64,000 nt of DNA. Origin: Chiloscyllium plagiosum (Eukaryota). Position numbers and translations under genes: made by a program. The notes under the pieces were generated by a model, which was not told the DNA's origin, made no database searches, and was given only the letters and a program-made list of their open reading frames with translations. Shown here one piece after another: positions 36,557 to 60,092 of this stretch; the first letter of the stretch is position 1, and each line of letters starts with the position of its first letter. Location: positions 90,811,353-90,875,352 of the forward strand of contig NC_057718.1 in assembly GCF_004010195.1 (NCBI RefSeq), in the 5' to 3' direction.

Positions 36557-36736
36557 TTTATCTTAATAGAAGCAAGTGCTGCTTTCCCATAAAGAACTCG
36601 CAGATTGAATTAGTATTTTATTTATCAGTGTTCCATTTGTCAAGGATTGCCTTAATCCAGTATGCACCTTCTTCCTGAGACTTTTTTTATGTAATGAAAC
36701 AGGCAGGAAGAGTGAATCCAGTAAGAACATAAAAAA

Positions 36737-36987
36737 CCAAAAGAGAAAATGCTGGAAAATCTCAGCAGGTCTGGCAGCATCTGTAAGGAGAGAAAAGAGC
36801 TGACGTTTCGAGTCTAACTGACCCTTTGTCAAAGCTGACAGCTTTGTCACAGCTTTGACAAAGGGTCATTTAGACTCGAAACGTCAGCTCTTTTCTCTCC
36901 TTACAAATGCTGCCAGACCTGCTGAGATTTTCCAGCATTTTCTCTTTTGATTTCAGATTCCAGCTTCTGCAGTAATTTGCTTTTATT
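36737..36987. mobile_element. Fold-back Penelope-like pLTR insertion, family C
   Basis: Near-perfect inverted arms of about 100 bp. Perfect 15-bp TSD TAAGAACATAAAAAA at 36722-36736 and 36988-37002. Confidence 0.82.
36851..36889 (+). ncRNA. Minimal hammerhead ribozyme motif with U3-A8 variant core, family C
   Basis: AGCT-TTGACAA-A-GGGTC-attta-GACTC-GAAA-C-GTC-AGCT. The same core is on the minus strand at 36798-36836. Confidence 0.72.
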
Positions 36988-38127: not shown

Positions 38128-38401
38128 AGGCAAAGGCTAATCAGCAGCAAGACCGTCTCCAATGGCGAACCCGAGGTTTCCATTAAAATGCCTTCAAAGC
38201 ACAACATCGAGAATGGAACGGGGCCAAGCAACTCCACTGAGAGGAGCATCAACGGGCAAAGAAGGGAAGAGGACAGAACTGAGGCCAGAAATGAAAGGGA
38301 GAATGAAAACGAGAATGAGGACAATCAGAACAACGAGAATGATGAAGAGGAGGAGGAGGAGGAGGAAGGCGAGGGGCCGTATGTACCATTCCACTTGCCG
38401 G
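38128..38401 (+). CDS. SLC24A3: SLC24A3 exon (274 nt), RQRLISSKTVSNGEPEVSIK...ENDEEEEEEEEGEGPYVPFHLP; acidic cytosolic loop
   Basis: tttcAG / GTgagt, phase 0/1. Poly-Glu stretch followed by GPY.PF, as in NCKX3. Confidence 0.95.
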
Positions 38402-47707: not shown

Positions 47708-49025
47708 TGTATGTGTGTGTGTGTGTATATATGTGTGTGCATATGTGTGTGTGTATGTGTGTGTATATGTGAATGTATGTGTGTGTGTATGTGCATGTAT
47801 GTGTGTGTGTATGTGTGCGCATGTGTGTATGTGTGTGTATATGTGTGTTATGTGTGTGTGTATATGTGTGTGTGTGATTGTATGTTGTGTATGTGTATGT
47901 GTGTGTGTATATGTGTGTCTGTGCGTGTGTATATGTGTGTGTGTGATTGTATGTGTGTGTGCTNNNNNNNNNNNNNNNNNNNNNNNNNNNNNNNNNNNNN
48001 NNNNNNNNNNNNNNNNNNNNNNNNNNNNNNNNNNNNNNNNNNNNNNNNNNNNNNNNNNNNNNNNNNNNNNNNNNNNNNNNNNNNNNNNNNNNNNNNNNNN
48101 NNNNNNNNNNNNNNNNNNNNNNNNNNNNNNNNNNNNNNNNNNNNNNNNNNNNNNNNNNNNNNNNNNNNNNNNNNNNNNNNNNNNNNNNNNNNNNNNNNNN
48201 NNNNNNNNNNNNNNNNNNNNNNNNNNNNNNNNNNNNNNNNNNNNNNNNNNNNNNNNNNNNNNNNNNNNNNNNNNNNNNNNNNNNNNNNNNNNNNNNNNNN
48301 NNNNNNNNNNNNNNNNNNNNNNNNNNNNNNNNNNNNNNNNNNNNNNNNNNNNNNNNNNNNNNNNNNNNNNNNNNNNNNNNNNNNNNNNNNNNNNNNNNNN
48401 NNNNNNNNNNNNNNNNNNNNNNNNNNNNNNNNNNNNNNNNNNNNNNNNNNNNNNNNNNNNNNNNNNNNNNNNNNNNNNNNNNNNNNNNNNNNNNNNNNNN
48501 NNNNNNNNNNNNNNNNNNNNNNNNNNNNNNNNNNNNNNNNNNNNNNNNNNNNNNNNNNNNNNNNNNNNNNNNNNNNNNNNNNNNNNNNNNNNNNNNNNNN
48601 NNNNNNNNNNNNNNNNNNNNNNNNNNNNNNNNNNNNNNNNNNNNNNNNNNNNNNNNNNNNNNNNNNNNNNNNNNNNNNNNNNNNNNNNNNNNNNNNNNNN
48701 NNNNNNNNNNNNNNNNNNNNNNNNNNNNNNNNNNNNNNNNNNNNNNNNNNNNNNNNNNNNNNNNNNNNNNNNNNNNNNNNNNNNNNNNNNNNNNNNNNNN
48801 NNNNNNNNNNNNNNNNNNNNNNNNNNNNNNNNNNNNNNNNNNNNNNNNNNNNNNNNNNNNNNNNNNNNNNNNNNNNNNNNNNNNNNNNNNNNNNNNNNNN
48901 NNNNNNNGTATTTGTGTATATGTGTGTGTGTATAAGTGTGTGTGATTGTATGTGTGTATATGTGTGTGATTGTATGTATGTGTATGTGTGTATATGTGTA
49001 TGTGTGTGTATGTGTATGTGTGTGT
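47708..49025. repeat. (TG)n/(TATG)n microsatellite flanking an N gap
   Basis: Seen directly; gap at 47964-48907. Confidence 0.95.
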
Positions 49026-50135
49026 TTTGTTAACAGCTGTTTTAAGGAGTAGGTGTTCTGGTAGTCTCGGAAATATCACAAGACAGAACAATCTGGGAGA
49101 AAATGTGAGAAGGCATCCAAAAGACTTCAGCCAGGTGCTCTGAGTGATGCACTTGCCCGTGGTGTGGTCCAGAACCTGGCTATTTAAGCCGTCTCTGTGA
49201 GGTCAGGCCCAGTGATACAAACTGGACACAGCTGTGGGCTGGCCTTCTGTCCTCTCCATTATGCTACCGGGACCACCTATGTGAGTGACCGCACTGGCCC
49301 ACAAGCTAAAATATGTCACATTTGTCCGATTACCAAATATCGGCCAACGTTTTATAGCCGCTGTTCTCTCAATTCGCCCTTCGACCTTTCTGGTGCAATA
49401 GATGAGATTTTCTTTGGCAAATTGGCTCTGTAGACGTGGGATGTTTATGAACTCCACTTTGAGAATTAATTTGAAAGATTTTAAGATTCATAAATACAGT
49501 ACTGGGTTGAAAGCATCAACATCATTGCAATTAGGGATGGACCTTAGCTTAAAAAGACATCTGTCAAGCTTGATATTGTTACTCATTTGTTCTGCTCACT
49601 CAGATGTTAGTGCTCAGGAATTCTTCCTATACCAGTATCAAGGGGTCCCAGGCAAGACTTAGCATAGGTTCGGTCCAGAGAAGGACCTTGCCTTTAGTCA
49701 TGTTCAAGCTTTGCTCTAGTTTAGTGCAATGAAAAATCAGTTTCTGTTTCACATCCCAGCTCCTCCTATGGGCTCAGATGAACAGTTTCAGGCAGTTTTG
49801 TGTCATGGGGCTCTCACACCGTTTGGACTTGGGTTAAGATGGGACAATCAATAGTCATGCGGTCAACATGAGAAAGTGTCCCCTGCTGGCACTCTAGGTG
49901 GGATTAGACTCCAGTCTGCAGCAGTGAGGGGACTCACCGAGCATCATGATGCAGACCATAAGTAAGGCAAGAATGTAGCAAAGTTTTTCCCCAATGGCAA
50001 TTATGTTGCACCTCTCTAATGCAAGAATAATGCAGGGAGCCAAAGCTTTTGTATGGAGTACTGGGAGGCACAAAGACAGAAGAAGCGAACATAATGTGAA
50101 CAACCAAAATGAATCCATAAAAGGATTCTCTGGTA

Positions 50136-59808: not shown

Positions 59809-60092
59809 AATGAATTTTGAGAAGATTTGTAGCTCTGGTTGAGGCTCTGGATATAAGTTTGCTCGCTGGGCTGGAAGGTTCGTTTTCAGATGTTCTGTCA
59901 CCGTACTAGGTTACATCATCAGTGAGAGTCTCCGGTGAAGCACCGGTGTTATGTCCCGCTTCCCTAAACACATAAATAGAAAGCAGGACATAACACCAGT
60001 GCTTTGCTGGAGGCTTACTGATGATGTTACCTAGTATGGTGACGAAACGTCTGGAAACAAACCTTCCAGCTCAGCAAGCAAACCTACATCCA
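59809..60092. mobile_element. Fold-back Penelope-like insertion, family D
   Basis: Inverted arms at about 59845-59962 and 59978-60095. TSD-like GAG(T/C)TGTCAAAGT at 59796-59808 and 60093-60105. A fragment of the same family lies at about 60875-60925. Confidence 0.75.
60015..60054 (+). ncRNA. Minimal hammerhead ribozyme motif, family D
   Basis: tta-CTGATGA-T-GTTACC-tagtat-GGTGAC-GAAA-C-GTC-tgg. Confidence 0.75.

What the first reader, a model, noticed from the sequence alone, without database searches (positions are those of the whole stretch)
36798..36889. Hammerhead with compensatory U3-A8 core in both arms of a young palindromic insertion
Seen: both arms read AGCT-TTGACAA-A-GGGTC-(a.tta)-GACTC-GAAAC-GTC-AGCT, giving a perfect 4-bp stem I and a 5-bp stem II. 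The core is UUGACAA instead of CUGANGA. Established: positions 3 and 8 form a tertiary Watson-Crick pair in the active hammerhead, and U3-A8 is a rare natural variant. Inference: the double substitution preserves exactly this pair, which argues for selection on catalysis in the parent family. Searches requiring CUGANGA would miss it. The perfect 15-bp TSD suggests a recent insertion.
Basis: partly seen in the sequence, partly recalled or inferred. Interest (0 to 1): 0.8.

Follow-up and report, generated by a model that had tools for sequence, protein, structure and literature searches.

The report
Variant hammerhead ribozyme in Penelope retrotransposon
This is a broken, head-to-head leftover of a Penelope-type jumping gene whose family carries a hammerhead ribozyme motif with a rare but already described U3-A8 core, and the family's copies begin at the motif's first base, likely the start of transcription, which suggests that the RNA jumps uncut.

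Summary
The motif is there on both strands (36851-36889 +, 36836-36798 -). The 251-bp insert is two 5' ends of a Neptune-type Penelope-like element (PLE) joined head to head, with a 15-bp TSD, in an intron of a Na/Ca-K exchanger-like gene. U3-A8 is the family state: 2,724 of 2,974 exact genome matches; U3-G8 28; C3-G8 3 of the first 100 non-U3 matches, all three at junctions. Sister families are C3-G8 and helix I covaries, so the fold was likely kept by selection in the parent. The two arms are one event, not two witnesses; in a read-through transcript they fold into one hairpin; the copy is not shown to be young. U3-A8 PLE hammerheads are published (Schistosoma; PMC4209133), and this scan noted one in another genome (e1-7353663). 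Not found in my searches: copies start at the first base of helix I (1,130 matches, versus 29 at the predicted cut site), about 31 nt behind a TATA box, and two sister families start at the same base. So the ribozyme likely sits at the transcript's 5' tip and uncut RNA is what jumps. Catalysis is untested.

The parts
36722..36736 (.). left target-site duplication, 15 bp (last 3 bases also match the element: priming microhomology)
   Evidence: (D19, I4)
36737..36836 (-). left arm: element positions +1..+100, ending at the inner reverse-transcription start site
36798..36836 (-). minimal type-I hammerhead motif, left arm (U3 = 36832, A8 = 36827; predicted cut between 36802 and 36801)
36837..36850 (.). 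14-nt junction made of re-copied bits of the element's first bases
36851..36889 (+). minimal type-I hammerhead motif, right arm (+1 = 36851; predicted cut between 36885 and 36886)
36855..36861 (+). core UUGACAA (U3 = 36855, C7 = 36859, A8 = 36860)
   Evidence: family counts
36851..36987 (+). right arm: element positions +1..+137
36951..36987 (+). 37-nt PLE 'tail' present on this arm only (between the two reverse-transcription start sites)
   Evidence: 3'-end peaks at about +100 and +136 in 97 arms; PMC11167929
36988..37002 (.). right target-site duplication, 15 bp
38131..38400 (+). next coding exon of the host gene (acidic loop of a Na/Ca-K exchanger-like protein); context only, the element is intronic
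   Evidence: Pfam Na_Ca_ex on 2 of 3 other exons tested

Best explanation
The insert is a promoterless, head-to-head pair of 5' ends of a Penelope-like retrotransposon whose family carries a U3-A8 minimal hammerhead motif at its first 39 bases, likely the very start of the transcript, where it is predicted to cut slowly (as a dimer or with the element's protein) after base +35, while uncut RNA likely serves as the template for jumping. Shown: family state, parent with RT and C-terminal GIY-YIG, 5' ends piled at +1, TATA box about 31 nt upstream in intact copies, two 3' end classes. Inferred: the element's endonuclease nicked both strands 15 nt apart; each nick primed reverse transcription, one from the tail end (+137) and one from the inner site (+100); both cDNAs ran to the RNA's 5' end, stuttered and were joined. 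Inferred for the parent: a cut would remove a capped 35-nt piece, or release unit-length RNA from tandem read-through transcripts; U3-A8 likely arose when C7 made a CpG, G8 decayed to A and C3U restored the 3-8 pair. This copy itself is likely inert: no promoter, and the arms pair into one hairpin.
For: Parent: copies with the same arm continue into a GIY-YIG end and an RT with YIDD (Pfam RVT_1 E 1.6e-5, below the curated cut-off; GIY-YIG look-alikes at 0.96). Counts: U3-A8 2,724, U3 non-A8 43 (28 G8), non-U3 207. Sister family A: C3-G8 80, U3-A8 0 of the first 100 of 330; family B C3-G8 59 of 64. Eleven hand-picked copies of five families: 14 invariant columns covering the core, 89.9% of cells paired, 17 two-sided changes, slid controls 17-44%. 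5' ends: of 97 arms picked by a downstream pattern, 14 keep the native upstream; of the other 83, 34 start at +1, 59 at +1..+4, 1 at +34..+38. Genome-wide, same design: 1,130 at +1, 29 at +36, 15 at control +40. TATA starts at -28 to -32 in 21 of 26 native copies and at -29/-31 in 8 of 9 family-A copies. Families A and B also lose homology at the first base of helix I. Uncut RNA as the main template and protein-assisted cleavage are reported for the anole PLE (PMC11167929).
Against: No cleavage, TSS or expression data. An extra-G cap signature was not seen (G 27, C 25, A 10, T 8 of 70). The upstream sequence also reads as a textbook splice acceptor (pyrimidine tract + AG), and family B has only a weak TATA-like motif. 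The monomer is predicted to fold with G5-A6-C7 paired to G16.2-U16.1-C17 (probability 0.86-0.95), an inactive shape. Covariation rests on one evolutionary event for 3-8 and on five related, hand-picked families, so the shuffle control is not a probability. A U3-G8 family consensus is listed for Saccoglossus (PMC4209133 supplement), so the pair is not strictly required in all PLEs. D. virilis Penelope is TATA-less with helix I at an intron end, not at the TSS.
Confidence: 0.7

Rival explanations
1. The hammerhead of this family is a catalytically dead relic: G8A (CpG decay) and C3U were fixed by drift in the one master lineage, and the hairpin is kept, if at all, as a protein-binding or promoter element. 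The retrotransposon identity is unchanged.
For: The family amplified from uncut RNA; C7 allows an inactive fold; hammerhead mutants of the anole PLE still insert in vitro (PMC11167929); Naiad PLEs thrive without canonical hammerheads (PMC8557442); both changes are transitions.
Against: All other core bases are intact and all five differences from family A in paired positions keep pairing (two double changes, one G.U); U3-A8 hammerheads are described as active in vitro (PMC3088659, passage citing earlier work); related families in other organisms' contigs list no change at positions 3 and 8 (weak, tables cut).
Confidence: 0.2
2. +1 is not a transcription start but a processing site: a 3' splice acceptor, or a nuclease cut or strong reverse-transcriptase stop at the base of helix I.
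For: Pyrimidine tract followed by AG in native copies; in D. virilis the intron ends at the 5' end of helix I (PMC4209133); no cap-G signature.
Against: Copies keep the AG (34 start at +1, 12 at +3) and show no shared upstream exon; family B starts at ATTC with no AG; TATA spacing in two families.
Confidence: 0.15
3. The insert is a MITE-like DNA transposon or a microRNA hairpin and the hammerhead look is incidental.
For: Long inverted repeat; Rfam microRNA hits.
Against: All Rfam hits are far below gathering scores; arms are asymmetric, many copies are solo or tandem, TSD lengths vary, and the arm is contiguous with RT and GIY-YIG coding sequence.
Confidence: 0.02

Closest known systems
Minimal type-I hammerheads of metazoan PLEs, incl. 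the U3-A8 variant of Schistosoma mansoni Cercyon elements (Cervera and De la Pena 2014, PMC4209133)
   Same: Core, unpaired base between 9 and 10.1, G10.1-C11.1, short helix I, loop-less palindromic helix III, location in the pLTR, U3-A8 covariation, opposite-strand pairs a short distance apart.
   Different: Vertebrate host (the 10 vertebrate rows seen in that paper's supplement are all C3-G8); one homogeneous family of at least 2,700 arms; helix II 5 bp; start of the RNA template mapped to the first base of helix I.
Poseidon PLE of Anolis carolinensis (PAc; Frangieh et al. 2024, PMC11167929)
   Same: Both-strand nicking, two RT start sites giving the 30-40-nt tail, uncut RNA as main template, no ends at the cut site.
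   Different: PAc has C3-G8 and its ORF starts inside helix II; here the long ORF's first ATG lies about 170 nt downstream of +1 and the linker is Neptune-type.
Neptune-clade EN+ PLEs (Craig et al. 2021, PMC8557442)
   Same: RT, CX2-5CxxC linker, C-terminal GIY-YIG, pLTR with hammerhead, inverted 5'-truncated copy, one-sided tail.
   Different: No RT tree was built here; this locus holds no coding sequence.
Non-LTR retrozymes (PMC7229834; bioRxiv 10.64898/2026.07.22.740005)
   Same: PLE-derived, non-coding, type-I hammerhead.
   Different: Retrozymes are same-strand tandem repeats; this locus is an inverted pair. Some other copies of the family are same-strand tandems.
D. virilis Penelope (Schostak et al. 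2008, PMC2377424)
   Same: Transcription starts in the pLTR.
   Different: TATA-less internal promoter; the hammerhead follows a 75-nt intron that starts 46 nt after the TSS, rather than starting at +1.

Membership tests
PLE minimal type-I hammerhead | Core (C/U)UGAN(G/A)A...GAAA...UH with a 3-8 Watson-Crick pair | tested here: met
   UUGACAA, GAAA, GUC
PLE minimal type-I hammerhead | Unpaired base between 9 and 10.1; G10.1-C11.1; palindromic 15.2-16.2 without loop | tested here: met
   A insertion, G-C, ACGU
PLE minimal type-I hammerhead | Helices I and II supported by covariation | tested here: met
   (11 hand-picked copies, five families; related sequences, not independent)
PLE minimal type-I hammerhead | Self-cleavage after C17 | not testable with these tools
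   No assay; genomic 5' ends give no excess at the cut site beyond microhomology
EN+ Penelope-like element | RT followed by C-terminal GIY-YIG endonuclease, contiguous with the pLTR (parent family) | tested here: met
   all copies read are broken; RVT_1 hit below curated cut-off
EN+ Penelope-like element | Inverted 5'-truncated copy and 30-40-nt one-sided tail | tested here: met
   100-nt and 137-nt arms; 3'-end peaks
Neptune clade | CX2-5CxxC linker between RT and EN | tested here: met
   CNRRRCNTC in L015
Neptune clade | Placement in an RT phylogeny | not tested
   No reference RT sequences were in hand
Non-LTR retrozyme | Same-strand tandem units each with a hammerhead | tested here: not met
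   This locus is an inverted pair
microRNA precursor (Rfam) | Gathering score of a family | tested here: not met
   Best 74.4 bits against 140

The most novel reading that the evidence does not exclude
In this vertebrate's Neptune PLEs the hammerhead is the first thing Pol II writes: a 5'-tip self-decapping switch that sorts transcripts into uncut, capped RNA (translated and transposed) and cut RNA (destroyed or circularised). The U3-A8/C7 family is an active but damped setting of this switch, and thousands of genomic 5' ends record both the start site and the exclusion of cut RNA.
Probability: 0.3. Interest if true: 0.65.

Novelty: new member of a known kind. Interest (0 to 1): 0.4.

Why it matters
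The U3-A8 core by itself is known, so this mainly adds a large, homogeneous vertebrate family that CUGANGA searches would miss. The more useful point is positional. The role of hammerheads in EN+ PLEs is called unclear (PMC8557442). Here three families start their templates at the first base of helix I, and in the U3-A8 family starts at +1 outnumber starts at the cut site 1,130 to 29. This gives in-vivo-derived support for the in-vitro result that uncut RNA transposes, and a concrete test: whether cleavage decaps and so restrains the element.

Tried and rejected
Rfam: only sub-threshold microRNA hits, no hammerhead model hit. Cleavage-site 5' ends: 29 matches; by my reading 15 join a partner arm through the shared AGCT, 6 are intact hammerheads with local changes, 8 others; control +40 gave 15, of which about 5 are plain ends; no clear excess. 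Cap-derived G at -1: inconclusive. A C3-G8 or U3-G8 subfamily with the same helix II: the 3 C3-G8 hits fetched all lack the AGCT strand; in 5 of the 20 loci fetched G8 sits in one copy and A8 in its partner, as expected of later mutation; 5 of 6 C3-A8 loci read are junction artefacts. A second U3-A8 family: 40 matches, scattered copies of family B, family A or this family; none looks like a separate family. A single quasi-palindrome correction at CTTTG-A-CAAAG as the source of both changes: rejected by reasoning, one event would also alter U4 or A9. Sequencing runs: no RNA holder listed; contigs only, so no ends or levels. No spliced joint was listed in four contig sets (no conclusion). Orthologous empty or filled site: only X21 covers the flanks, so age was not settled. 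PDB sequence search with the RT frame: 0 hits; Pfam on the endonuclease piece: 0. Two papers on 3-8 exchanges (PMC1986816, PMC2271363) were not held, so rates for U3-A8 were not read.

Full report
Observation. The window shows the motif as described on both strands: 36851-36889 (+) and 36836-36798 (-). Helix I is AGCU/AGCU, helix II GGGUC/GACUC with one G.U, an extra A follows A9, and helix III is the loop-less palindrome ACGU, which cannot close in one molecule. The insert spans 36737-36987 between perfect 15-bp repeats. The left arm is positions +1..+100 of the element, the right arm +1..+137, with a 14-nt spacer; the arms differ at 3 of 100 positions. It lies in an intron of a Na/Ca-K exchanger-like gene on the + strand (Pfam Na_Ca_ex on 2 of 3 exons tested). 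The genome is 3.56 Gb; that it is a shark-like fish is my recollection of its repeats and was not tested.

Parent element. Other copies of the arm continue upstream into a pLTR and the end of a GIY-YIG frame with a CNRRRCNTC linker, and are joined to RT sequence with YIDD. Among 20 loci fetched around RT hits, near-complete broken elements show the order tail, N-terminus, RT, endonuclease, pLTR, hammerhead (L135, L136). Pfam gives RVT_1 at E 1.6e-5, below its cut-off, and nothing for the endonuclease piece; the Atlas gives GIY-YIG clusters at 0.96 (family on 13-56% of members). Inverted truncated copies, a one-sided 30-40-nt tail and the CX2-5CxxC linker are the marks of EN+ PLEs and Neptune (PMC8557442, passages). 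3' ends of 97 arms peak near +100 and +136, matching the two RT start sites described for the anole element (PMC11167929, parts 1-2 of 4 read).

Is U3-A8 the family state? Yes. Exact genome counts with one pattern: U3-A8 2,724; U3 with another base at 8, 43, of which G 28, C 11, T 4; non-U3 207, and of the first 100 listed C3-A8 70, G3 15, A3 12, C3-G8 3 (my tallies). Of loci read, 5 of 6 C3-A8 and 3 of 3 C3-G8 lack the AGCT strand, so they are junctions. Sister family A is C3-G8 in 80 and U3-A8 in 0 of the first 100 of 330 matches; family B is C3-G8 in 59 of 64 copies after dropping loci chosen on positions 3 and 8. No second U3-A8 family appeared among 40 matches. In an alignment of 11 hand-picked copies of five families, the rest of the core is invariant and 89.9% of cells pair, with 17 two-sided changes against at most 44% pairing in slid controls, while the sequence downstream is 68-73% identical between families. 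This supports selection on the fold, with the limits that 3-8 changed once and the families are kin. Position 7 is C in 136 of 139 copies of this family and in 1 of 64 and 0 of 36 copies of B and A, so a CpG route for G8A followed by C3U is my inference.

Where the RNA starts. In 97 arms chosen only by a downstream pattern on contig C1, 14 keep the native upstream sequence; of the other 83, 34 begin at +1, 59 at +1..+4 and 1 at +34..+38. Genome-wide, requiring two non-native bases upstream: 1,130 matches at +1 (palindromes count twice), 29 at the predicted cut site +36, 15 at control +40. Most +36 cases are joins through the shared AGCT or local mutations. Native copies have TATA at -28 to -32 in 21 of 26; family A has it at -29/-31 in 8 of 9, followed by TCAGTTC, a match to the initiator consensus as I recall it. 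In families A and B, copies without native upstream match the first base of helix I in 16 of 32 and 25 of 39, and the base before it only at chance level; B has no AG there, which speaks against a splice acceptor. I infer that +1 is the Pol II start and that uncut RNA is the template. Against: no extra-G cap signature (G 27, C 25 of 70), a good acceptor-like sequence in this family, a weak TATA in B, and no RNA data.

This copy. It lacks the promoter. A transcript through it folds into one hairpin of -190 kcal/mol that buries both motifs; the arms are on opposite strands and cannot give a same-strand dimer. Even a free arm is predicted to pair G5-A6-C7 with G16.2-U16.1-C17 (0.86-0.95). Age: 2.9% non-CpG and 26% CpG divergence in 67 arms; a perfect TSD is expected in 41-64% of such copies. 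Contigs from runs coded as other organisms hold arms about 10% different that also end at +1, with no change listed at positions 3 and 8 (tables cut, weak).

What is known. U3-A8 minimal hammerheads in S. mansoni PLEs, about 1,300 hits, and low in-vitro activity of dimers: PMC4209133 (parts 1-2 of 4 and passages of supplement file 2 read; file 1 not searchable; figures not seen). Natural U3-A8 and earlier in-vitro activity: PMC3088659 (passages). TATA-less D. virilis promoter and intron: PMC2377424 (passages). Retrozymes: PMC7229834 (passages), bioRxiv 10.64898/2026.07.22.740005 (part 1 of 5 and passages; supplements closed, and they may list chondrichthyan families). PMC2920678: passages only. 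Nine paper searches found no report of a vertebrate U3-A8 PLE family or of helix I starting at the TSS; the library lacks most subscription journals and repeat databases were not searched.

Verdict. Real, and a new member of a known kind. The U3-A8 pair is a family trait that was probably selected, but activity is untested and this copy is probably inert. The added value is the mapping of the template's 5' end to the first base of helix I. Interest 0.4.

Noticed in passing
window 60014-60055 (+): A second hammerhead motif with C3-G8 and a 6-bp helix II, from another repeat family (family C; also in L127 and L129), with a TATA-like box further upstream.
   Followed up: partly
run X3 laid on L077:939-1349: [quoted passage not shown]
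   Followed up: no
L024, L077, L128, L165, L270, L107: Same-strand pairs of U3-A8 hammerheads 50-2,150 nt apart; several appear to arise by a jump from +1 to an internal site. These could form dimers.
   Followed up: partly
5' junctions at +1: CC just before +1 in 16 of the first 100 matches against GG in 3; apparently untemplated after the TSD in L008 and L030. Unexplained; may be terminal transferase activity of the RT.
   Followed up: partly
window 36853-36863 and family copies: CTTTG-A-CAAAG is a quasi-palindrome; several copies carry the flipped form or fold back at it (L029, L068, L088, L091, L101, L103, L120).
   Followed up: partly
L077:938-1110; L135: A 22-codon upstream ORF starts at +57 and stops in the tail; a possible donor at +15 and acceptors near +140 and +169 could remove it. 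No spliced joint was listed.
   Followed up: partly
L015, L017, L128 pLTR, about 50-55 nt upstream of +1: TGACTCA, an AP-1-type motif (recalled), upstream of the TATA box.
   Followed up: no
window 434-59252, many places: More than ten fragments of sister PLE arms (families A and B) lie in the window.
   Followed up: partly
window about 32450-55850 (+): Exons of a Na/Ca-K exchanger-like (SLC24-type, name recalled) gene at about 32450, 38131, 44125, 50428 and 55721.
   Followed up: partly
window 48001-50000: GC falls to 24% against about 45% elsewhere.
   Followed up: no
L122, L135, L140: A 41-bp piece of the endonuclease gene is amplified as a minisatellite in three separate copies.
   Followed up: no
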